DNA of 64,000 nucleotides from a virus: UHGV virus genome UHGV-0214148. The stretch is one strand, 5' to 3'. Shown here in pieces: positions 19,475 to 55,230 of the stretch. The notes below the pieces were generated by a model that was not told the DNA's origin, did not search any database, and saw nothing but the letters and a program-made list of their open reading frames with translations. The stretch's first letter is position 1; each line of letters opens with the position of its first letter. The position numbers and the translations under genes were made by a program.

Positions 19475-20398
19475 ATGACAACCAATGCAGAACCAAGGTT
19501 ATCGAATCGTTTATACGATAAACCCACCGTATTGTCCGTAGTCGCTACGTCCAAGTGCAACCTGGATTGTAGCTTCTGCGGTGGAGCCTATTACATGAAT
19601 CGTGAAGATTCTCCGCGAGAGTTTCAACGTGAGCGAATTTTGGAAGCGCTGGAAGCTAATCCAACCATTACCGAAATTCAGTGGACGGGTGGTGAGCCAT
19701 TACTGGCAACCCGTAAAATTGAGGCGTTTGTTGACGAATTAAAAGTGATTCGTCCAGAACTCAAACACCAGTTGTATACCAATGGCTTAAAGATGCGTAA
19801 ATCGCATCTCCCGTTGCTAAAACAGTTTGACAATGTCTACGTTAGCATCGATGGGTTTAAGTCGTCTGAGCGCCCGTTTATGCGCTTTATTGACGAAGGC
19901 TGTTACGAAGCACTGGAAACGATCTACGAGCTGGATAATGTCCAGACTTGGGGTGTCCTGACACGGGACCGTTTAGGGGACAAACGCTGGCACGAAGATA
20001 TTATTCAGCTGCACAGCGCGATTTACCATTACGGTTTCCGTGCAATGACGTTACTCTTAGATGCGAAAATGCCAAAACCTTTATCGCCCGACCACGTCAT
20101 GAACTTTATTTACGGCTACTATCAGGTTCAGGATAACATTGAACGACTGAATGTAGTAAATAGTCGTGAATGCGGCTTTACGGTAAGTAAAGTGTTTGAA
20201 GAAGGGTGTAACGTTTGCAGCGAAAGTCTTTGGATTAATGCAGACGGTGGTGAGCACCAACTCCAGAATGCACCTAACGTTCTGGAATCGGGATGTAACC
20301 AACTGGCCTTCTCTATCGGTGTAGAGGCGTACGAATATATTCGTCGCGTAGTGATGGCAGGGCGTAATAGAGGGGCGGCAAATGAGTCAAGTAAATGA
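19475..20398 (+). CDS. radical SAM enzyme (307 aa)
   Basis: N-terminal CNLDCSFC (CxxxCxxC) cluster and TGGEPLL SAM-binding motif; extra C-terminal cysteines (CNVC...C). Confidence 0.8.
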   Translation: MTTNAEPRLSNRLYDKPTVLSVVATSKCNLDCSFCGGAYYMNREDSPREFQRERILEALEANPTITEIQWTGGEPLLATRKIEAFVDELKVIRPELKHQLYTNGLKMRKSHLPLLKQFDNVYVSIDGFKSSERPFMRFIDEGCYEALETIYELDNVQTWGVLTRDRLGDKRWHEDIIQLHSAIYHYGFRAMTLLLDAKMPKPLSPDHVMNFIYGYYQVQDNIERLNVVNSRECGFTVSKVFEEGCNVCSESLWINADGGEHQLQNAPNVLESGCNQLAFSIGVEAYEYIRRVVMAGRNRGAANESSK

Positions 20399-21704
20399 AT
20401 TCCCTAAGCAGTTAACGTATCAGATCGTAACCAACCTTTCGTGTAACCTGGACTGCGAATATTGTTACGAACGTAAGTACCCGCGTAACAACAAAGCGGC
20501 GGATATTGTTGATTTCTTACACGCCTGTTTTGAACGTGATAAAAACGAACCGAATGTTGAAGTTATTATCGACATTATCGGTGGTGAGCCGTTCATGCAG
20601 CCTAAACTGCTGCTGGCTGCGTTTGAAACCGCTGAGCAGTTGTGTAAAGAACACAACCGACCGTTTATGTTTAGTATCTCCACGAACGGAACGCTGTTAG
20701 ATCGTCCGTTGAACCGTGAGATTGTAGAACGTTGGAAAGACAAACTTTCGGTTGGGGTTTCGATTGACGGCTTACCTGAGTCCCATGACCGTTATCGTAT
20801 CTTCACAACAACACGCCAGGGTTCTTACGAAGCCGCAGTACGTGGCTATAACTACTTAAAAGAGGTTGGCATTGCAGAGCTCGGCGTAAAAGCAACCTTT
20901 ACGTTAGAAACGCTGCCGTTCTATGCTGCGGGGATGAAGTCATTAATTGACATTACTGGCGGTGGGACAATTTCTGGAAACGTAACTTTCGAAGACGTTA
21001 TGCCACGTAGCATGGCGACGTCAATCGCTTTACAGATGATGGATGTGATAGATTACTGGGTTGAGAAAGGATTACACACCAACCCACGTAATATCTTATC
21101 GCACATCATTCCAGAAGGGTTGGATTTCGATACGATTTGGGAACCGAACTGGCGTGACCAGTTACTGTATAATGACACCGTACGGTTGAACCCAGAACGT
21201 TTACGTCCGTTCTGTGGGACGTTAACGCACATGACGTGCTTAGGGTTTGACCGTAAGATCTTTGGCTGTAACCGCTTTATGTCAACGGTAACGTCGCGTT
21301 CTGCGGTGTTTGAGTTGGTAGGTCGGGAATTCGTCAGTCTGGACAACGGTAAATTGTTAGAAGAGATTCAAACGCAATATACCAACTACCCAGAGACCTG
21401 TTTAGGTTGTCCGATGAAACACGCTTGTGGTAGCTGCGCGGCTGCTTCTTACGAGAACGGGGAAGGAACGTTAGAAGACCGTAAAGCGTATCACGCTGAA
21501 CGACGTCAGTGCGGCTGGACGACAGCGAAACTGATGGTGGCGGAATACTGGAAACAGAAGATGGGTACGACGTCAGCAAAAGCGTTCCATGACACGAGCA
21601 TGTGTTATTGCCCACGCTGTGTTCGTGAACGTGCCCAAAAGGAAAAATTATTAAGAGAAGCCAAAGATGAAACCAATTCTGATCAACAATATTACGAAGC
21701 GTAG
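20382..21704 (+). CDS. radical SAM enzyme with SPASM-type C-terminal domain (440 aa)
   Basis: N-terminal CNLDCEYC and GGEPF motifs; C-terminal CLGCPMKHACGSC plus further Cys pairs; start overlaps the upstream gene by 17 nt. Confidence 0.8.
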   Translation: MSQVNEFPKQLTYQIVTNLSCNLDCEYCYERKYPRNNKAADIVDFLHACFERDKNEPNVEVIIDIIGGEPFMQPKLLLAAFETAEQLCKEHNRPFMFSISTNGTLLDRPLNREIVERWKDKLSVGVSIDGLPESHDRYRIFTTTRQGSYEAAVRGYNYLKEVGIAELGVKATFTLETLPFYAAGMKSLIDITGGGTISGNVTFEDVMPRSMATSIALQMMDVIDYWVEKGLHTNPRNILSHIIPEGLDFDTIWEPNWRDQLLYNDTVRLNPERLRPFCGTLTHMTCLGFDRKIFGCNRFMSTVTSRSAVFELVGREFVSLDNGKLLEEIQTQYTNYPETCLGCPMKHACGSCAAASYENGEGTLEDRKAYHAERRQCGWTTAKLMVAEYWKQKMGTTSAKAFHDTSMCYCPRCVRERAQKEKLLREAKDETNSDQQYYEA

Positions 21705-22953: not shown

Positions 22954-23484
22954 TTAGGACGTAAAACCGTCCAGCTCACCGTTGGTGGTGGCCAGGTCAA
23001 TACGATTATCAACAACCTTCGGCGTAATTACGAAAGTTGCCATTACACCTGGCTTATAACGGAGGTTCTTTTCAGTAACGGTACACGTTACCGTACGCAG
23101 AGTGACGCTATCGTGTTCGTCTTTCTGGTCTTCGGTGGTGTACTCAACGTCACCAGGTGCGATAGAGTCGTCAGGTTTTACTTTATTGATGTAAAACTGT
23201 AATCGGTCGCGTAGTTCGTTTTCTCCAGTCCAGAGAGCCAAATCGTCCGTTACCTCAATGCGTCCGACAACGCCAGGTTCCAGACGATCGTAATGCAGTT
23301 CGATTGCGCCTTTAAAATTTTCAGACTCTGTACGTGCGGTCATGGTAACTTTGGTATTTTTATCGCCCTTTTCAAGAGCGACAGGTTGACCAAAAGTTAC
23401 CTCTTTATCAGTGACCTGATGCGGTAGCTCTGTGTTAGCAGCATTATAAAGCGCAACTAACATCATCTGGTTAGTAGCTGCCAT
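22954..23484 (-). CDS. hypothetical protein, paralogue family A (176 aa)
   Basis: Shares NFKG..E.HY.RL and TNGELDGFT blocks with 23552..24082. Confidence 0.6.
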   Translation of the reverse strand: MAATNQMMLVALYNAANTELPHQVTDKEVTFGQPVALEKGDKNTKVTMTARTESENFKGAIELHYDRLEPGVVGRIEVTDDLALWTGENELRDRLQFYINKVKPDDSIAPGDVEYTTEDQKDEHDSVTLRTVTCTVTEKNLRYKPGVMATFVITPKVVDNRIDLATTNGELDGFTS

Positions 23485-23535
23485 TATCTTAAATCCTTAA
23501 AATGAAAGTTAAAGAAATATCGGGGGAGGTTACCA

Positions 23536-23544
23536 CCCCCCCCC
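23536..23544. repeat. C9/G9 homopolymeric tract inside a GC hairpin
   Basis: Nine consecutive C on the plus strand in the intergenic region about 50 nt upstream of the 23484 start. Confidence 0.6.
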
Positions 23545-23551
23545 GAATCAA

Positions 23552-24082
23552 TTACTCTTTAGGCGCTGGTGCGGTGAAGCCATCCAGTTCACCTTCCAAA
23601 CCGTTCAGTGCTACTTTCTCAATAGCTGGAGGGGTAACTTTATACGTCGCAACAGTACCTGGCAGGAACTTCAAGTGGCCAGCCACAACCGTTACCACGT
23701 AAATGGTTTTGCCTTCTTCTTCACGAGAGATAGTTTGCAGGTCGTTTTCACCGAACTCGTCATCGGTGTACCCTTTCTCAGCCATGGCTGCGTTAACTTT
23801 CGCCAGGATTTTCGTCGGTGAATCGAAATCGGTAGTAGGTGCAGTTACTTCAACTTCACCAACGATGTCGCAGGAAAGACGAGTATAGTGGAATTCTTTC
23901 TCGCCTTTGAAGTTCTGGCTTTCTGCCTTGGCGGTCAGAGTAATTTTAGTGTTGCGGCCAGCTTCTCCGGTGAACTCAGCGACAGCACTAAAATTAACAT
24001 CATTTACAGTCAGCTTAGAAGCAGTTTGGTTGTTTTTAGCAATTACAATCTCGATAAGCTGCTGTTGAAAAGTTTTAGCCAT
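23552..24082 (-). CDS. hypothetical protein, paralogue family A (176 aa)
   Basis: Start moved to ATG 24082 (MAKTF...), which has a GAGGT SD and gives the same length as its paralogue; the track start is 24118. Confidence 0.55.
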   Translation of the reverse strand: MAKTFQQQLIEIVIAKNNQTASKLTVNDVNFSAVAEFTGEAGRNTKITLTAKAESQNFKGEKEFHYTRLSCDIVGEVEVTAPTTDFDSPTKILAKVNAAMAEKGYTDDEFGENDLQTISREEEGKTIYVVTVVAGHLKFLPGTVATYKVTPPAIEKVALNGLEGELDGFTAPAPKE

Positions 24083-24222
24083 TGTTTTTACCTCGTAAGT
24101 AGTATGGGTGGTTTGCATAGTATTGTTCGGATTATAGAAGTGTTGTTAATAGTTATGACAGACAGCAGTAAGGGTTGTCTGTAAAATTATTATTTTTTAA
24201 CTTTTTATAGAAGGGTGAAAAC

Positions 24223-24705
24223 ATGCTAAAACGTTTTCTATTTGTTGTAACTGCAGCACTTTCGTTGGCAAGCTGTGCCCTACAACCCACCGCTAACGGT
24301 CAATTCTCGACTGTACCCGTAGAGCCACACGACATGGTTATTTACACCTGTATGGGTGTAGAGCAAGATTTTGTAAATTATAAACCTGTCGTCAATTCGA
24401 CTAACCTAATGTTAGGCTCAGTAACTGTAATCGATACTGGTGCTAACTGGGTAGCCACCTGGCCAAATGGTAAGATTGAGTCACCCCAACTTTATAAAGA
24501 TCTATTAGGTAAAGTTAATGGAAATATCGATCCTATCACGGGACAACGTTACTACCGTGTAAATGGGTTACTTTCAAAAACACCAACATTTGCGTATTCT
24601 ACTTTAGAATATAAAACGGGTGATGGTAAAGGCATTACTTTCTTCCACTGTAAAGAAGGTGTAGCGTCTGACACTGGAACAATGCTCCATCCTGCGGAAC
24701 AATAA
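24223..24705 (+). CDS. lipoprotein (160 aa)
   Basis: Signal peptide ending in lipobox LASC; lone plus-strand gene with its own terminator among minus-strand genes. Confidence 0.65.
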   Translation: MLKRFLFVVTAALSLASCALQPTANGQFSTVPVEPHDMVIYTCMGVEQDFVNYKPVVNSTNLMLGSVTVIDTGANWVATWPNGKIESPQLYKDLLGKVNGNIDPITGQRYYRVNGLLSKTPTFAYSTLEYKTGDGKGITFFHCKEGVASDTGTMLHPAEQ

Positions 24706-24711
24706 AAACTA

Positions 24712-24735
24712 CCCTACTCCTTAACGGGAGTAGGG
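24712..24735 (+). terminator. intrinsic terminator
   Basis: 9-bp stem CCCTACTCC/GGAGTAGGG with a 6-nt loop. Confidence 0.6.
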
Positions 24736-24820
24736 TATAGTCATTTTAACCGCCAAATCGTGCGTAGAACGCATTCTAAGCGCCTTTATACAAAATAAGG
24801 TATAAACGCCTTAGAAATAA

Positions 24821-25994: not shown

Positions 25995-26099
25995 TTATAG
26001 AAACCAGAAAAATTCGTATCCACGCTTTTCGTCTTTACGTTTCCGCCCAGACGTTAACGCTTTCCACAATAGTGCTAAGAGTTTAGCAAACCAGTTCAT
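25995..26099 (-). CDS. possible 34-aa membrane peptide (MNWFAKLLALLWKALTSGRKRKDEKRGYEFFWFL)
   Basis: ATG overlaps the stop of the muramidase gene (ATGA); hydrophobic N-terminus then a basic tail; too short for the ORF track. Confidence 0.3.
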   Translation of the reverse strand: MNWFAKLLALLWKALTSGRKRKDEKRGYEFFWFL

Positions 26100-31346: not shown

Positions 31347-31372
31347 CCCTCACCTAAGTAATATATATCTGA
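31347..31372 (-). promoter_or_regulatory. conserved 26-bp promoter-like element, copy A
   Basis: CCTCACCTAAGTAATATATATCTGA, nearly identical to copies at 35726 and 55204, each 47-76 nt upstream of a minus-strand start codon. Confidence 0.45.
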
Positions 31373-35725: not shown

Positions 35726-35752
35726 CTCTCTCCTAGGTAATATATATCTGAG
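35726..35752 (-). promoter_or_regulatory. conserved 26-bp promoter-like element, copy B
   Basis: CTCTCTCCTAGGTAATATATATCTGAG, 47-73 nt upstream of the 35679 start and just downstream of terminator 35766-35796. Confidence 0.45.
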
Positions 35753-39056: not shown

Positions 39057-39287
39057 TTAAGATTTTCTACATGTTATTGAATCGAAAGCACCACGCCCAA
39101 CCCAACGCCAATTATAATGATGATCAGCTTTATAAAGTGTGTATCTGCCCTGCTTTTTTACGTCGAAAATATTGATCGTAGTCTCTTCATTACCCAGCTT
39201 AGCTGTGCCGTAACATACAGGTTCGGGTAGTTGTTGACATCCACTTACTGTAAGCAATGCGAAACCCAGTAAAACTTTTCTTAACAT
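39057..39287 (-). CDS. small lipoprotein (76 aa)
   Basis: Signal peptide with lipobox TVSGC; mature part about 58 aa; lies between the two family-C genes. Confidence 0.6.
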   Translation of the reverse strand: MLRKVLLGFALLTVSGCQQLPEPVCYGTAKLGNEETTINIFDVKKQGRYTLYKADHHYNWRWVGRGAFDSITCRKS

Positions 39288-39884: not shown

Positions 39885-42800
39885 TTAATTCCCCTTGAGT
39901 TCTTTAAGCTCTTGGCGAAGAGTTTTCATGCCTTCTACTAACAACGCAATAACACCATTGTAATTTAGACGTAAACGTTTTTCGCCTGAAATGGCATCAT
40001 CATCCTCAGACACAAGCTCAGGTAACGCTTCTAGAGCGTCCTGAGCAATTAGACCTACAGAAGTCTGCCAGCCGTCGTCAGGATGCTGAATTTCGTACAA
40101 ATAACCGGTTAGTAACTCTAACCGATCCAAAGCCTTATCCAGCTTCACCAGATTACGTTTGTTACGACGGTCAGAACGAATCTGTACGTCGTTAAACGAA
40201 CCGTTACCGTTGCCAGTAACGTTATGTCCAAAGTTTACTTGGCCGTTAGAATTATTAAAAGACAACGGGCGTAATCCGTTCCAGGAACCCGCTGCGGCTT
40301 GTCCGGCGTCGGTTACTAAGAAATAGGTATTGGCACCGTCGTTACGTAAAATAAAACCGTAGGTACCGTAAGCGATTCGAAAATCAGGGTATTTAGTGGC
40401 CAATTTACCATTAACGGTTAAATCACCGCCTACAGTACCGCCCCCTGACGGTAACGCGCCCACTTCCGCAGCAGTTGGCTTGTTTCTCGTATTGTAAGCA
40501 CGACGCCAGCCTGGTGAGTATCCATCGCCGTTAAATACGTAGATAAACTCCGCATTAGTGAGTGCTCCGCCGACGCTCGTCGTTGTGGCGGTCGTTATAC
40601 GGATCGTGTAGTTGTTTGTGCTGTTGCCGTTACTAATGACTTCTATAACGGCCCCAGCTAACGGAATGACACCACAACCCGTCTCGCTGTGAGGTATGGA
40701 CGCACTGGCGGCATAAGCCCACGCACAGCGAGCAACCCACGATCTTGTGGTAAATGCGCCGTTATTTTTCAATAACGTCACTAGCTGTGCTGTAGTTATT
40801 GCACCGCCATTAGCGCCAGTTTCTAACCAACCACTAGGTGATGCCGGACAACCTATTTCGGCTGGCCCTAACGATATATTTCTAGTGCCATCAAACGCAA
40901 TACCATTGATGGTTCTTGCGGTTTGCAACTTTGTTGCCGTGGCTGCGTTTCCGGTGGTCGACTGATTCCCTGTTTGGTTTACTCCAGGTAAGTTGATGTC
41001 TTTAGTACCATCAAAAGCTACGCCACCTATATTTCGCGCAGTCTGGAGCTTAGTCGCAGTCGCAGCATTCCCCGTCGTCGATTGGTTACCGGTTTGGTTC
41101 ACACCGGGCAGACTAATGTCTTGCGAACCATCAAAGTTAATACCACCGATCTTACGTGGCGTTTGTAACTTAGTAGCGGTCGCTGCATTACCTGTCGTAT
41201 TCTGGTTACCTTGCTGGTTAACCCCCGGTAAATTGATATCCCCAGTACCGTCAAAGGTAACGCCCCCGATTCTGCGAGCAGTTTTCAGTTTCGTCGCGGT
41301 AGCAGCGTTACCAGTAGTATCTTGATTACCGGTGGTATTTACACCAGGAATACTATCACGGGCAGTATAAACTTGTGCCCAATCTGACCACGGCGCATCC
41401 GCTGTATCGCGTCGACTACGAATATAAACGGGTGCGTGCGCACCACTCGTGCCCGACCAACCGATTAACAGTTCACCTTCACCTAGCGCAGTAGAACCGC
41501 CCAAATGCAGCAAGTTACCATAAGCGGTCGGATAACCGTTATTGTAAACTTCGTACATCTGAATACCGGGTGTACCTTTGTTTGAACCGGTTAGTGCAGT
41601 AACCCGACCACGACCTACCAGGGTGTTGATATTGATGTCAGCAGAACCATCGAATCTCACACCGTTAATATTTCTGGCAGTTTGAAGTTTAGTGGCTGTC
41701 CCGGCATTACCCGTGGTGTTTTGATTACCCTGTTGGTTAACACCTGGGAGGTTAATATCAGCACTACCGTCGAAAGCGACTCCACCAATTCTACGTGCCG
41801 TCTTTAATTTCGTTGCGGTTGAAGCATTGCCTGTTAACTCGCCTGCTAACCCTTTTGCAAAGGTCTGTTTTTCTGCCCAGGTGTGTGCTGCATTCAATAC
41901 AGGCATCTGTCGTGGTGTAATCGTACGACTACCTTTCTCACCAGCGATACGTACTGCAAAGAATCGATAGTTGGCAGTAGACACCGTACTACGCCAAACC
42001 AACATACTCCGGCCTGATGTAGCGCCATCTGATGGACCAACCAGAATGCTAACTAAGTTACCGTCAATAACACCCCAATCCATTCCCGTAGGAATGTTTT
42101 TCATGGTGTTAAGCGGCGTACAGATTAACTCACCCGGTTTAAAGTCATAGGTTTGCCAGTCTAAAGGATCAACATTCGCACGTTCACCGCCGATACCTAA
42201 TACCAGCGGAAGCGAATACGATGTGAAAACCTCACGCCAATCGCTCCAAGCGTTACCCGTACGGATACGTTGGAATTTACGACCTTTAGTTTCTGTACCC
42301 GTACCGTATGTAGTATAATTCTGTTCGACCCCTGTACCGTCTAAGCGTAAGGTAACTTCACAAACGCCTAATATGGTTTCACCAGAAGAACCGGTAAGTG
42401 GACCGTTAGTTGCTTCACCAGTGACACTGAAACGTCCCGGTTTAACGAGATCGTTAAAATTGGCTTTAAAGAAAGCACCGTCAGTCTGATAACCAACCTG
42501 AATCCAATCTTCCCATTGCGGGTTTGATGAATCCCACGTTGCGGTCAAACCACGAACATACATCGTACCACGACGTGTGGTGTATCGCTGCAACCGTCCG
42601 AAAAGACCACCTTCCATTACTTCTAGTACGCCTTGCGCACCGCCACCTTCTTCAGGGTAATGTCTGCTAAAAACAGCCAGCGAACTGCTTGAGTTTCGCC
42701 AGTTACCCATATGCTCAGCGCCACCCAAACTGTTCAAGTCTATAGCGGTAGATAATGGACGTACACCAGTAGTTACCATTCTCCACGGCGACCAGGGTCC

Positions 42801-44324
42801 ATTGGCACCATTCCACTCGCCACTCAGCATACGGTTGTACACGTTACCATTACGACAGGTAAAACGCTGTGCACCACTGTAATTACCGGCTTTATACACT
42901 TCCAGATAACCGACTGCACCGTCTTCTGGGAAATGTTTTGCCATCGACGCATTGGTTGACGTCGACTTAGCCCACGTTCCTGTGTAATTGGCATCAGGAG
43001 CAAATGTGTTAATATCAGCATCTACAGGCATTTCGCCACGGAAACGTAGATAGGTGTCAGGAGACAGACCGATATTGCGAGCAAACGTTTCTTTATCTGG
43101 GATATCAGCGCCGTTAGAGTTTTTCTGTAACGCGCCATTCGCTTTATCTACAGTGGCTTTTAATCCCAAGAAATTGATGATATCCGCAGTTGACCCTTTC
43201 GCTAACAAGGATCTGGCCGTTTCTGTAAAATCCGTTAATCCGACTTTATTACTGCCAGTGAAATACATGAGTTTATTTGCCGCTGTGGTGACTGCGGCAA
43301 TGGCGGTGAGCAACGGACTGAGAGGTTGTTTCTGCGCAAGTTCCCCAGTAATCGTTGTTGCGAAGTTAGGGTCATTACCTAACGCCTCAGCTAATTCCGC
43401 TAAGGTATTTAACGTCTCGGGTGAAGAACCAACCAGTTCCGCAATCGCGTCACGCACCCAGGCCGTTGTGGAGATGCTCGTGTCGTTCGAGTCCTTCGGG
43501 GGTGTTGGGGATGACGGTTTACCCGTAAAATTCGGCGAATGTTTATTGGCTTTTAACTGTAATTCGTCATTCAGCTGTTTAACCGTGGACGGTGTGGCGG
43601 CCTCAGTCACGGATTCGCTAGTCAGTGTATCGTTAAGTTTAACGATACCTTTACCGGTCGTACTAGCGTCGATTAAGCCCTGCGCAGCGATTTTCTCCGC
43701 ACGTAAGGCAGCTGACTCCGAGCGTGTTGCTGCGCCTTCTGAACTTTCTTTATCTTTCGCGACCTGTGCAGCAATCTTCTCCACTGCGCCCTTACTGGCC
43801 TCAACTGAAGCCGCAGTATTCTCGACACCGGTAGCCGTCTGTTGGACTTGTCCGGCCTGTTGCGTAACCGTTTCTGCTTTCTTAGTTACATCAGCCGCTG
43901 CAGCCGTCACCGATTGTTCGCTTGTAGCGACAGCTTGAGCTTTCTCATTTACCGACTGTAATACAGTATCTACGGCAGTTTTCGCGGCTAAAACTTCAGC
44001 GTGTTTTTTGTTAACCTCAGCAGTTTTAGTGGCAACGGTTCCCGCTTGCTCGCTAACGGTGGAAGCTAACGTGTCAGTTTGTTGCTTCGCGGTTTCTGCT
44101 AAGTCTTTTGCTTGTGTGGCTTCTGTTGCAGACTGTTGTGATTTGGCCGCAGCCGTTTGTGCGTCAGCAACCGCGTTTCTGACGGTGTCAATATCCGCAA
44201 CAATCTCGCGGACAGGTAACTGATAATCCCTTTCGTCTTTCGAAAAAAGTAAAACGCCTTCACCGATATCCCCGGTGTATGGACGTAAATCGTGTAAACG
44301 AATTTTCTTTACCGCTTTAGCCAT
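39885..44324 (-). CDS. long tail fibre with coiled-coil shaft, tandem fibre repeats and C-terminal intramolecular chaperone domain (1479 aa)
   Basis: Ala/Gln/Thr-rich coiled coil; about six copies of a roughly 40-aa repeat (NTTGNAATATKLQTAR.IGGV.FDG..DINLPGVNQ.GNQ); C-terminal SDRRNKRNL...LTGYLYE resembles peptidase-S74 chaperone domains. Confidence 0.85.
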   Translation of the reverse strand: MAKAVKKIRLHDLRPYTGDIGEGVLLFSKDERDYQLPVREIVADIDTVRNAVADAQTAAAKSQQSATEATQAKDLAETAKQQTDTLASTVSEQAGTVATKTAEVNKKHAEVLAAKTAVDTVLQSVNEKAQAVATSEQSVTAAAADVTKKAETVTQQAGQVQQTATGVENTAASVEASKGAVEKIAAQVAKDKESSEGAATRSESAALRAEKIAAQGLIDASTTGKGIVKLNDTLTSESVTEAATPSTVKQLNDELQLKANKHSPNFTGKPSSPTPPKDSNDTSISTTAWVRDAIAELVGSSPETLNTLAELAEALGNDPNFATTITGELAQKQPLSPLLTAIAAVTTAANKLMYFTGSNKVGLTDFTETARSLLAKGSTADIINFLGLKATVDKANGALQKNSNGADIPDKETFARNIGLSPDTYLRFRGEMPVDADINTFAPDANYTGTWAKSTSTNASMAKHFPEDGAVGYLEVYKAGNYSGAQRFTCRNGNVYNRMLSGEWNGANGPWSPWRMVTTGVRPLSTAIDLNSLGGAEHMGNWRNSSSSLAVFSRHYPEEGGGAQGVLEVMEGGLFGRLQRYTTRRGTMYVRGLTATWDSSNPQWEDWIQVGYQTDGAFFKANFNDLVKPGRFSVTGEATNGPLTGSSGETILGVCEVTLRLDGTGVEQNYTTYGTGTETKGRKFQRIRTGNAWSDWREVFTSYSLPLVLGIGGERANVDPLDWQTYDFKPGELICTPLNTMKNIPTGMDWGVIDGNLVSILVGPSDGATSGRSMLVWRSTVSTANYRFFAVRIAGEKGSRTITPRQMPVLNAAHTWAEKQTFAKGLAGELTGNASTATKLKTARRIGGVAFDGSADINLPGVNQQGNQNTTGNAGTATKLQTARNINGVRFDGSADININTLVGRGRVTALTGSNKGTPGIQMYEVYNNGYPTAYGNLLHLGGSTALGEGELLIGWSGTSGAHAPVYIRSRRDTADAPWSDWAQVYTARDSIPGVNTTGNQDTTGNAATATKLKTARRIGGVTFDGTGDINLPGVNQQGNQNTTGNAATATKLQTPRKIGGINFDGSQDISLPGVNQTGNQSTTGNAATATKLQTARNIGGVAFDGTKDINLPGVNQTGNQSTTGNAATATKLQTARTINGIAFDGTRNISLGPAEIGCPASPSGWLETGANGGAITTAQLVTLLKNNGAFTTRSWVARCAWAYAASASIPHSETGCGVIPLAGAVIEVISNGNSTNNYTIRITTATTTSVGGALTNAEFIYVFNGDGYSPGWRRAYNTRNKPTAAEVGALPSGGGTVGGDLTVNGKLATKYPDFRIAYGTYGFILRNDGANTYFLVTDAGQAAAGSWNGLRPLSFNNSNGQVNFGHNVTGNGNGSFNDVQIRSDRRNKRNLVKLDKALDRLELLTGYLYEIQHPDDGWQTSVGLIAQDALEALPELVSEDDDAISGEKRLRLNYNGVIALLVEGMKTLRQELKELKGN
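40850..41340 (-). repeat. tandem roughly 120-nt coding repeats (fibre repeat units)
   Basis: Near-identical DNA units seen directly; further copies lie around 41640-41830. Confidence 0.6.
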
Positions 44325-45173: not shown

Positions 45174-45548
45174 TCAGTCCGTTAATTCTCCACACAACTC
45201 GACGTCAATACCGAACATCAATCCCACCTCTTGAAGCTTGTTCGCCAATAAGTGGCGATGACAAAACTTACCTGGCGGACAATAACACATCAAAACCAAA
45301 TCTTCGTGTCTAAGTAATGACACTAAAGTTTCGGCGTCGGTATCTAACAGTCGTTCGAGTTTGTACAAATACTTTATCGTGTACTCGCGTTCAGCAGCTG
45401 CATCCTTTGCAGAGTTTTTATACGCCATTAAGAAATCCCAGTCGGGGGCGAGTTCCTTTCGCCCCGACTTCACAGTGATATCCACTACGTGAAACCCTTT
45501 CTGCTTAGCTAACCGCCACTTAGCGAGTTGTAACGTCCAGATACGCAT
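45174..45548 (-). CDS. DUF488-like protein (124 aa)
   Basis: LMCYCPPGKFCHRHLLANKL resembles the DUF488 C.C...CHR signature (recalled from memory). Confidence 0.45.
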   Translation of the reverse strand: MRIWTLQLAKWRLAKQKGFHVVDITVKSGRKELAPDWDFLMAYKNSAKDAAAEREYTIKYLYKLERLLDTDAETLVSLLRHEDLVLMCYCPPGKFCHRHLLANKLQEVGLMFGIDVELCGELTD

Positions 45549-45745
45549 TAGGAACGAGTCTGCGATTCAGCCATCAACGCACAACTTTTCACAGCCTGTG
45601 CATGAAGCTCTGTACCAGGTGTGTAATCCTTTATACAATCCTGATACAATTCGCTTTTCTTTTCTAAAACACGATTGTCGCACTCGGCACTTGCTAGTGC
45701 CCCAGCGATAAGGATAAAAGCTACAATCGGTAACCAAATCTTCAT
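45548..45745 (-). CDS. small secreted protein (65 aa)
   Basis: Cleavable signal peptide (ALASA/E); two conserved Cys shared with the next gene. Confidence 0.45.
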   Translation of the reverse strand: MKIWLPIVAFILIAGALASAECDNRVLEKKSELYQDCIKDYTPGTELHAQAVKSCALMAESQTRS

Positions 45746-45969
45746 CGGCCATCTCCCATTAGTTTAGCATGTTCTGTGCACGCCTTTACCAATTCGCTGT
45801 AACGCGGATCGTCTACGGTCTTTCCTGACATACACTCACGATAAAGGCTTTCTTTGCGCGAGTCATCTGACACACGGACATAAAACATCAGCATCGTCAC
45901 AACCAGCACGGTTGAAACAATCGCTGAGATGATGTATCCATTAGCTCTTTTCATCGTATAAAACACCAT
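45742..45969 (-). CDS. small single-pass membrane protein (75 aa)
   Basis: N-terminal hydrophobic helix; the C-terminal ELY.EC...VKAC pattern is paralogous to 45548..45745. Confidence 0.45.
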   Translation of the reverse strand: MVFYTMKRANGYIISAIVSTVLVVTMLMFYVRVSDDSRKESLYRECMSGKTVDDPRYSELVKACTEHAKLMGDGR

Positions 45970-55203: not shown

Positions 55204-55230
55204 CTCTCACCTAGGTAATATATATCTGAG
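55204..55230 (-). promoter_or_regulatory. conserved 26-bp promoter-like element, copy C
   Basis: CTCTCACCTAGGTAATATATATCTGAG, 50-76 nt upstream of the 55154 start; terminator 55246-55267 lies immediately upstream. Confidence 0.45.

What the first reader, a model, noticed from the sequence alone, without database searches (positions are those of the whole stretch)
24223..24705. Lone plus-strand lipoprotein gene among minus-strand genes
A 160-aa lipoprotein (lipobox LASC) is transcribed opposite to its neighbours, has its own terminator, and lies between family-A paralogues and the lysis enzymes. An opposite-strand, self-contained gene is moron-like: candidates are superinfection exclusion, host-envelope modification, or an o-spanin-like lysis role.
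Basis: partly seen in the sequence, partly recalled or inferred. Interest (0 to 1): 0.45.

Follow-up and report, generated by a model that had tools for sequence, protein, structure and literature searches.

The report
Conserved jumbo-phage outer-membrane lipoprotein gene
This is a real, self-contained gene for an outer-membrane lipoprotein that SPN3US-like giant phages keep at the same place and in the same orientation; it is not a sporadic add-on or the usual lysis lipoprotein, and its role, most likely shielding the infected cell envelope, is untested.

Summary
ORF 24223-24705 (+) encodes a 160-aa protein with a lipoprotein signal peptide (lipobox LASC, Cys18, Ala at +2). It is the only + strand gene in the minus-strand block 22954-63824 and ends in a 12-bp hairpin terminator.

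- **Not a sporadic moron.** The window is an SPN3US-like (Chimalliviridae) jumbo phage. The gene (phrog_9559; SPN3US gp159, Asesino gp174) is in 55 phage genomes. In all nine SPN3US-clade loci read it has the same position and orientation. dN/dS is 0.11-0.15.
- **Phage-type transcription signals.** A conserved TATGACA motif (phiKZ-type late signal) and the terminator frame it. The early-promoter motif is absent.
- **Not seen in virions.** SPN3US virion proteomics does not list gp159.
- **Poor o-spanin candidate.** It has no partner gene and no C-terminal membrane segment. The clade keeps a separate membrane-protein/lipoprotein pair elsewhere.

Best guess (about 0.3): an envelope-shielding, superinfection-exclusion-type protein. 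A peptidoglycan-hydrolase inhibitor is the main rival.

In passing: a true Cor exclusion lipoprotein lies at 39057-39287, beside the tail fibre.

The parts
24154..24160 (+). TATGACA motif, a candidate phage-RNA-polymerase (phiKZ late-type T-3ATG+1) start signal, 69 nt upstream of the ATG
   Evidence: TATGACA (TATGACG in L005) lies 41-69 nt upstream of the lipoprotein ATG in all six SPN3US-clade loci examined, in an otherwise diverged spacer. The phiKZ late-promoter consensus comes from PMC7598289. Function is inferred; no transcript data exist.
24158..24182 (+). Stem-loop at the predicted 5' end of the transcript (ACAGACAGC / GUUGUCUGU)
   Evidence: RNAfold gives -12.2 kcal/mol, z = -6.2 in the window. 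A hairpin of different sequence at the same place is predicted in 5 of 6 relatives (z -1.7 to -2.7), and is weak in L008. RNAalifold found no consensus because stem lengths differ.
24211..24217 (+). Ribosome-binding site AAGGGTG
   Evidence: Read directly from the sequence. AAGG/AGGA is conserved before the ATG in relatives.
24223..24705 (+). Lipoprotein CDS, 160 aa (phrog_9559; orthologue of SPN3US gp159 and Asesino gp174)
   Evidence: dN/dS 0.11-0.15 against relatives with 95% amino-acid identity.
24223..24276 (+). Signal peptide with lipobox LASC; Cys18 (24274-24276) is the predicted lipidation site, and Ala at +2 predicts outer-membrane sorting
   Evidence: Lipobox Cys is invariant and the +2 residue is A/T/S/V, never Asp, in all aligned members. 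The only weak database matches are lipoprotein signal-peptide models.
24277..24666 (+). Mature domain (residues 19-148; confidently modelled from about residue 28): predicted beta-barrel of ten strands, with invariant Cys43 and Cys143 on strands 39-51 and 135-145 (possible disulfide) and a near-invariant DxGANW...ESPQLYKDLLGK segment
24667..24702 (+). Variable, disordered C-terminal tail (residues 149-160)
   Evidence: pLDDT below 50. Length and sequence vary, and the tail is Pro/Thr/Ala-rich in Erwinia phages.
24710..24737 (.). Bidirectional hairpin terminator shared with the convergent 171-aa gene
   Evidence: 12-bp stem on both strands. An equivalent hairpin lies just after the stop codon in SPN3US, Asesino and L005.
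24114..24119 (-). TATGCA motif on the minus strand upstream of the divergent DUF7941 head-protein gene (true start about 24082)
   Evidence: TGCATA is invariant in six loci. It marks the other half of the divergent control region.

Best explanation
Supported by sequence analysis and prediction: the gene encodes a non-virion lipoprotein specific to SPN3US-like jumbo phages. Inferred from the established Sec / Lgt / LspA / Lol pathway: the precursor is exported, lipidated on Cys18, cleaved, and (Ala at +2, no Asp) carried to the inner leaflet of the outer membrane. A beta-barrel of about 120 residues then hangs into the periplasm on a short tether; Cys43 and Cys143 could staple it with a disulfide. 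Inferred from motifs: it is transcribed as a monocistronic unit by the phage's own RNA polymerase from a TATG-type (middle/late) start and stops at a hairpin shared with the convergent gene. My committed guess at function: through its near-invariant face (DxGANW, ESPQLYKDLLGK, R109, Y111) the barrel binds an envelope component conserved among Enterobacterales. This makes the infected cell, and later its debris, refractory to further phage entry. That is superinfection exclusion and progeny protection in the manner of T5 Llp or Cor, achieved with an unrelated fold.
For: Lipoprotein nature: lipobox invariant in 17 of 17 members, +2 never Asp, two further invariant cysteines. Real and constrained gene: 55 phage genomes; same position and orientation in every clade locus read; dN/dS 0.11-0.15. 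Phage-only and small family: 13 clusters among 1.84 billion representatives. Folded binding-type domain: pLDDT 83 beta-barrel. Not in virions: absent from the SPN3US virion spectral-count table, while its neighbour gp160 is abundant there. Own unit: conserved TATGACA, 5' hairpin and terminator. Link to host-recognition genes rather than to lysis genes. (a) In L008 the GH108 / small ORF / DUF1353 block is inverted and moved, yet the lipoprotein stays next to the small DUF7941 genes. (b) In the distant homologue L012 it lies directly after a 1024-aa tail fibre and a DUF4376 'tail fiber protein' on the same strand. (c) Against L005 it is 71% identical while the lysis-side genes are 90-96% identical, with a break near 24800. 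Precedent, from my own knowledge: characterised non-spanin phage lipoproteins (T5 Llp, Cor) are receptor-blocking exclusion proteins encoded beside receptor-binding genes. Cor does exactly this in this window.
Against: No functional data exist for any family member. There is no sequence or specific structural similarity to Cor, Llp or any characterised exclusion protein. The putative binding face is almost invariant among phages of Salmonella, Erwinia, Proteus and E. coli, whereas receptor blockers usually vary with the receptor. The motif upstream resembles a late-type start, not the early motif AGATATATATTACCTAGG found three times elsewhere in the window, and classical exclusion genes are early. 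This phage already has Cor. The adjacent DUF7941 proteins are head proteins in SPN3US, not fibres, so the 'host-recognition module' argument rests mainly on L012 and the DUF4376 gene.
Confidence: 0.3

Rival explanations
1. Periplasmic inhibitor of a peptidoglycan hydrolase. This would be an outer-membrane-anchored analogue of MliC/PliC/PhiA, or a functional analogue of T4 Spackle. It would neutralise the tail-associated lysin of superinfecting phages, or restrain the phage's own endolysin until lysis.
Confidence: 0.2
2. A lysis protein for the outer-membrane step: an atypical o-spanin, or a new outer-membrane disruptor working with the endolysin cassette.
For: It is an outer-membrane-targeted lipoprotein with a late-type start motif, lies close to the endolysin in most genomes, and is conserved across the clade, as essential lysis functions are.
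Against: There is no same-strand, adjacent or embedded gene for an N-terminal-TMD protein and no C-terminal membrane segment, so it is not a u-spanin. It has a well-folded barrel rather than a short, unstructured periplasmic part. It is on the opposite strand to the lysis genes. SPN3US carries a better candidate pair: a 156-aa N-terminal-TMD protein (180017-180487) directly followed by a 159-aa lipoprotein (180497-180976). The pair is also present in Asesino (gp223/gp224), and its lipoprotein matches 73 phage records. A 34-aa cationic amphipathic ORF sits right beside the endolysin.
Confidence: 0.1
3. Another manipulation of the host envelope unrelated to exclusion or lysis, for example interference with the flagellar basal body or motility (SPN3US uses flagella as receptor), with Tol-Pal or Lpp tethering, or with vesiculation.
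For: The conserved binding face across different hosts fits a conserved housekeeping target. SPN3US is reported to be flagellum-dependent (PMC11428620). No known family fits.
Against: This is purely by elimination; nothing in the sequence points to a particular target.
Confidence: 0.25
4. A virion or assembly component, or an unexpressed relic.
For: It lies among structural genes and is divergently paired with an abundant head-protein gene.
Against: A Sec-exported, lipidated protein cannot join cytoplasmic virion assembly (established knowledge). It is not listed among SPN3US virion proteins. Strong purifying selection and invariant lipobox and cysteines argue against a relic.
Confidence: 0.03

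Closest known systems
Cor superinfection-exclusion lipoprotein (phi80/N15/HK022; phrog_1119)
   Same: A small phage-encoded outer-membrane lipoprotein that is not a spanin, encoded near host-recognition genes, with conserved cysteines. A true Cor homologue is present in this same window at 39057-39287, with 61.5% identity to Stx-phage Cor.
   Different: The target has no sequence similarity to Cor. It is twice the size and has a predicted beta-barrel. It is conserved across the clade, whereas Cor is sporadic: the organism tally shows only 4 Erwinia and 2 Salmonella (both SSU5) records among 105.
T5 Llp (lytic-conversion lipoprotein blocking FhuA)
   Same: From my own knowledge: Llp is a lipoprotein of a virulent phage, encoded next to the receptor-binding gene and transcribed in the opposite direction as its own unit. 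It protects the infected cell and the progeny. The gene anatomy is similar here.
   Different: Llp is about 60 residues when mature and is expressed early. No sequence or fold match was found. The target's upstream motif is late-type, and its neighbours are head proteins and lysis enzymes, not the receptor-binding protein.
MliC/PliC/PhiA periplasmic lysozyme (peptidoglycan hydrolase) inhibitors
o-spanins (lambda Rz1 type) and u-spanins (T1 gp11 type)
   Same: A lipobox-bearing phage protein predicted to reach the outer membrane, in the neighbourhood of an endolysin.
   Different: No i-spanin partner, no C-terminal TMD, a folded barrel, and the opposite strand. A separate spanin-like pair exists in SPN3US and Asesino.

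Membership tests
Bacterial-type lipoprotein (signal peptidase II substrate) | N-terminal basic region, hydrophobic region and lipobox [LVI][ASTVI][GAS]C | tested here: met
   MLKRFLFVVTAALSLASC, with the Cys invariant in 17 of 17 aligned homologues. Weak hits only to lipoprotein signal-peptide models.
Bacterial-type lipoprotein (signal peptidase II substrate) | Actual lipidation and outer-membrane localisation | not testable with these tools
   Outer-membrane sorting is inferred from Ala at +2 (no Asp) under the Enterobacterial Lol rule. It needs globomycin or palmitate labelling and fractionation.
Moron (accessory gene cassette) | Own promoter and terminator, transcribed independently of neighbours | tested here: inconclusive
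   The terminator is conserved. A conserved TATGACA motif is present, but it is a phage-polymerase type signal, and the sigma-70-like matches are not above shuffles and not conserved. No transcript data.
Moron (accessory gene cassette) | Sporadic presence among otherwise syntenic relatives | tested here: not met
   Present at the same position and orientation in SPN3US, Asesino, SPAsTU, L005-L008 and L020-L022, and in 55 phage records.
Moron (accessory gene cassette) | Atypical base composition | tested here: inconclusive
   GC3 is 0.317 against a window mean of 0.431 (sd 0.047), second lowest after Cor. Orthologues in SPN3US and L005 are not atypical.
Two-component spanin, o-spanin subunit | Adjacent, overlapping or embedded i-spanin gene (N-terminal TMD, periplasmic coiled coil) on the same strand | tested here: not met
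   Both neighbours are on the opposite strand and lack an N-terminal TMD.
Two-component spanin, o-spanin subunit | Short, largely unstructured periplasmic part | tested here: not met
   The mature part is about 142 aa and is predicted as a confident beta-barrel (pLDDT 83).
Unimolecular spanin (u-spanin) | Lipobox plus a C-terminal transmembrane segment | tested here: not met
   The C-terminus ...KEGVASDTGTMLHPAEQ is hydrophilic, and the hydropathy scan finds no TMD.
Cor (phrog_1119) | Sequence match to the family profile | tested here: not met
   The target matches only phrog_9559. The 76-aa ORF 39057-39287 matches phrog_1119 at E 1.3e-25.
MliC/PliC lysozyme inhibitors (PF09864) | Profile match and conserved inhibitory loops | tested here: not met
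   No Pfam hit at E <= 10 for any of 17 members.
MliC/PliC lysozyme inhibitors (PF09864) | Small beta-barrel closed by a disulfide between terminal strands | tested here: inconclusive
Virion structural protein | Detected in purified particles | tested here: not met
   gp159 is absent from SPN3US Table S4 of virion spectral counts, while gp155 and gp160 are listed (PMC5105663). This is evidence from an orthologue, not from this phage.

The most novel reading that the evidence does not exclude
The family is a new, phage-specific class of outer-membrane-anchored periplasmic inhibitor that neutralises peptidoglycan-degrading entry enzymes. It would be a structural convergence on MliC/PliC and a functional analogue of T4 Spackle. 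It would give nucleus-forming jumbo phages superinfection exclusion and protection from lysis-from-without across many enterobacterial hosts.
Probability: 0.15. Interest if true: 0.6.

Novelty: new variant of a known kind. Interest (0 to 1): 0.3.

Why it matters
Chimalliviridae are studied intensively for their phage nucleus, but how they deal with the host envelope (exclusion, lysis control, protection of progeny) is almost unknown. Here is a clade-conserved, non-virion, exported protein with a compact predicted fold and a nearly invariant surface segment. It is a tractable handle: it can be expressed alone in Salmonella or E. coli and tested for phage resistance, enzyme inhibition and binding partners. 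If it proves to be an exclusion factor or hydrolase inhibiter, it would add a new fold to the short list of phage envelope-protection proteins. It would also bear on phage-cocktail design with SPN3US-like phages. If it does nothing measurable, the gene is simply one more conserved hypothetical protein.

Tried and rejected
- Foldseek against the PDB with the first, shallow-alignment model (pLDDT 68) gave nothing below E 0.03.
- The afdb50 fold library was not available.
- BFVD returned only the family itself and unnamed phage proteins.
- Profile search of PDB sequences matched only a lipoprotein signal peptide, TrwH.
- Pfam and NCBIfam at E <= 10 over all 17 members, and PADLOC, gave nothing beyond signal-peptide models.
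- hhalign against MliC gave probability 11%.
- RNAalifold on the 5' leader gave no consensus structure. Single-sequence folds were used instead.
- Sigma-70 promoter scans were not above shuffles and not conserved.
- By my own eyeball tally of the upstream regions printed, TATG alone occurs in about 13 of 30 gene-upstream spacers, near chance. Only the cross-genome conservation of TATGACA carries weight.
- The SPN3US infected-cell proteome paper (PMC6384053) is not held, so expression of gp159 could not be checked. No paper mentions SPN3US gp159.
- The exact window protein is not on record in the assembly collection.
- The idea that the lipoprotein itself is a hypervariable arms-race gene was dropped. 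Against the closest relative the variable island is the small DUF7941 genes (60-88% nt), not the lipoprotein (90-94%).

Full report
**1. What is there**

ORF 24223-24705 (+) is real. It has an ATG start and 160 codons, preceded by AAGGGTG. The N-terminus MLKRFLFVVTAALSLASC|A is a textbook lipoprotein signal peptide. Five bases after the stop lies a 12-bp-stem hairpin (24710-24737), which also scores as a terminator on the minus strand, so it serves the convergent 171-aa gene as well.

The gene is the only + strand gene between 22954 and the end of the window. However, just two minus-strand genes separate it from a long + strand block (2297-22886). It therefore sits at a strand-switch boundary rather than deep inside a minus-strand operon. 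The left neighbour's start is most likely 24082 (conserved GCCAT plus GAGGT ribosome-binding site), not the longest-ORF start at 24118.

**2. Where the window comes from and how the gene is distributed**

tblastn places the protein in 55 deposited phage genomes, all jumbo phages: Seoulvirus (SPN3US and relatives), Erskinevirus (Asesino) and further Erwinia, Escherichia and Proteus jumbo phages. Identities are 47-58%. The protein belongs to phrog_9559 (unknown function, E 2e-65) and has no Pfam domain. Its orthologues are SPN3US_0159 (gp159) and Asesino gp174.

A profile search of 1.84 billion representative proteins found only 13 clusters. Contigs were read for seven family members. Those in the SPN3US clade are phage-sized (about 220-227 kb), including the copies deposited in Salmonella assemblies. 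The family is therefore small and appears restricted to phages.

In SPN3US, Asesino, SPAsTU, L005-L008 and L020-L022 the gene has the same position and the same opposite orientation. It is always divergent from the last of one to four small DUF7941 genes. That is not the distribution of a sporadic moron.

Against the closest relatives (95% amino-acid identity), dN = 0.025, dS = 0.17-0.23 and dN/dS = 0.11-0.15. At greater distances dS is saturated, and where computable the ratio is 0.11-0.18.

**3. The protein**

Alignment of 17-18 members shows these invariant residues: the lipobox Cys18, Cys43, Cys143, Gly73, Arg109, Tyr111, Ser126, Gly133 and Gly135. A near-invariant stretch covers DxGANWVA...ESPQLYKDLLGK. 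The residue after the lipid-modified Cys is A, T, S or V and never Asp. Under the Enterobacterial Lol rule this predicts transfer to the outer membrane (inference).

With the deeper alignment, AlphaFold2 gives pLDDT 82.9 and pTM 0.71. The model is all-beta with ten strands and a disordered C-terminal tail. The invariant Cys43 and Cys143 lie on strands 39-51 and 135-145. A periplasmic disulfide between them is my inference; I did not measure their distance in the model.

**4. Transcription signals**

The window contains three copies of AGATATATATTACCTAGG (31353, 35732, 55210; 0.03 expected by chance). This fits the AT-rich, highly conserved early (virion-RNAP) promoter type described for phiKZ-like phages (PMC7598289). 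None is near the lipoprotein.

Instead, TATGACA lies 41-69 nt upstream of the ATG in all six clade loci compared (TATGACG in L005), within an otherwise diverged spacer. phiKZ late promoters are defined by T(-3)ATG(+1). A hairpin of varying sequence starts at the predicted +1 in five of six loci. On the other strand, an invariant TATGCA precedes the divergent DUF7941 gene.

TATG alone is too short to be evidence: by my own tally of the spacers printed, it occurs in about 13 of 30 gene-upstream spacers. The argument rests on conservation of the 7-mer. I therefore infer, but have not shown, a monocistronic unit read by the phage non-virion polymerase at middle or late times.

**5. Context**

The DUF7941 neighbours correspond to SPN3US 'paralog family B'. 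These are head proteins, and gp160 is estimated at more than 300 copies per capsid (PMC5694885). The SPN3US spectral-count table lists gp155 and gp160 but not gp159 (PMC5105663 Table S4). This agrees with the expectation that an exported lipoprotein cannot be a virion part.

To the right lie three genes:
- a 171-aa protein matching phrog_894 'endolysin', with an M15-like motif by my reading; its SPN3US orthologue gp158 is reported as a virion, non-head protein;
- a DUF1353 protein;
- a GH108 / PG_binding_3 endolysin.

Three observations loosen the link to these lysis genes.
- In L008 the endolysin / small ORF / DUF1353 block is inverted and relocated, while the lipoprotein stays with the small DUF7941 genes.
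- gp158 orthologues are missing from Asesino and L008, but the lipoprotein is present.
- Against L005 the right-hand genes are 90-96% identical and the lipoprotein only 71%. Nucleotide identity changes near 24800, the convergent terminator region.

In the distant homologue L012 (32% identity) the gene lies on the same strand directly after a 1024-aa tail fibre and a DUF4376 'tail fiber protein'. A DUF4376 gene also lies two genes upstream in the window.

**6. The spanin question**

A six-frame scan of the whole SPN3US genome finds only two credible lipoproteins in annotated genes. One is gp159. The other is a 159-aa protein (180497-180976, lipobox LLLTGC) that directly follows a 156-aa protein with an N-terminal membrane segment, a helical region and a Pro-rich C-terminus (180017-180487). 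This is the 'separated' two-component spanin architecture.

The pair (phrog_8719 plus phrog_8165) is also present in Asesino as gp223/gp224. Its lipoprotein matches 73 phage records. By synteny with SPN3US coordinates, it should lie outside the present window.

The target has no such partner and no C-terminal membrane segment, and it is a folded barrel. The o-spanin reading is therefore unlikely.

**7. Function**

No experiment exists for any member of the family. The gene is not named in any held paper, and the infected-cell proteome paper is not held.

My committed reading, at about 0.3, is an envelope-shielding protein of the superinfection-exclusion kind. It would be anchored under the outer membrane and bind a conserved envelope component. 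The reasons are the precedents (Llp, Cor), the self-contained unit, the link to fibre and DUF4376 genes in L012, and the decoupling from the lysis enzymes.

The main rival, at about 0.2, is a peptidoglycan-hydrolase inhibiter of MliC/PliC/Spackle logic. It is suggested by the lipid anchor, the barrel, the placement of the two invariant cysteines, the PhiA hit and the neighbouring hydrolases. It has no profile support.

A lysis role (0.1) and an unrelated envelope manipulation (0.25) remain open.

Three facts argue against my own reading: the late-type motif, the near-invariance of the putative binding face across phages of different hosts, and the presence of Cor in the same genome.

**8. Verdict**

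The gene is a conserved member of an uncharacterised, phage-specific lipoprotein family. It is best described as a new variant of the known kind 'phage-encoded outer-membrane lipoprotein acting on the host envelope'. Interest is moderate to low until a phenotype is shown.

Noticed in passing
window 39057-39287 (-): A 76-aa lipoprotein (MLRKVLLGFALLTVSGC...) is a true Cor superinfection-exclusion homologue: 61.5% identity to Cor of Stx phages, 44% to N15 Cor, phrog_1119 at E 1.3e-25. It lies inside the tail-fibre locus (1479-aa fibre at 39885-44324). In the organism tally of its 105 hits only 4 Erwinia and 2 Salmonella (both SSU5) records appear, so it seems rare among jumbo phages. It has the lowest GC3 in the window (0.286). 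This is the real moron-like exclusion gene here, and it hints at FhuA use.
   Followed up: partly
window 25995-26099 (-): A 34-aa cationic amphipathic ORF (MNWFAKLLALLWKALTSGRKRKDEKRGYEFFWFL) sits between the DUF1353 gene and the GH108 endolysin. A small gene is called at the same place in most relatives read: 34 aa in L005-L007, L020 and L021; 50 aa in L008; Asesino gp172; two small ORFs in SPAsTU. It could be a membrane-active lysis accessory. It has no PHROG match.
   Followed up: partly
SPN3US NC_027402.1 180017-180976; Asesino KX397364.2 181970-182947 (locus L023 952-1929): An unannotated candidate two-component spanin pair. A 156/165-aa protein with an N-terminal TMD is directly followed by a 159/156-aa lipoprotein (phrog_8719 plus phrog_8165, both 'unknown function'). 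The lipoprotein matches 73 phage records.
   Followed up: partly
window 31353-31370, 35732-35749, 55210-55227 (all -): Three copies of AGATATATATTACCTAGG (0.03 expected by chance) lie upstream of minus-strand genes, followed by a GAGAG/GTGAG stem. They are likely early (virion RNA polymerase) promoters of this phage.
   Followed up: partly
window 22954-24082 and the equivalent loci in relatives: The number of small (about 176-aa) DUF7941 head-protein paralogues next to the lipoprotein varies: SPN3US 1, window 2, Asesino 2, L020 3, SPAsTU 4. This is the most divergent spot against the closest relative (60-88% nt in a 94-99% background). It is a local hot spot of paralogue turnover.
   Followed up: partly
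window 19475-21704 (+): Two adjacent radical SAM genes (307 and 440 aa, the second with a Cys-rich C-terminus) are conserved across the clade just upstream of the DUF4376 gene. Their substrate is unknown. Peptide or protein modification of a structural protein is conceivable.
   Followed up: no
window 24223-24705: GC3 of the lipoprotein gene is 0.317, against a window mean of 0.431 (sd 0.047). Orthologues in SPN3US and L005 are not atypical, which suggests that this allele came from a more AT-rich relative.
   Followed up: partly
window 45548-45969 (-): Two small paralogous ORFs (65 and 75 aa) each have an N-terminal signal peptide or TMD and conserved cysteines (YQDCIKD...VKSCA and YRECMSG...VKACT). 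They are probably exported. They have no PHROG match.
   Followed up: no
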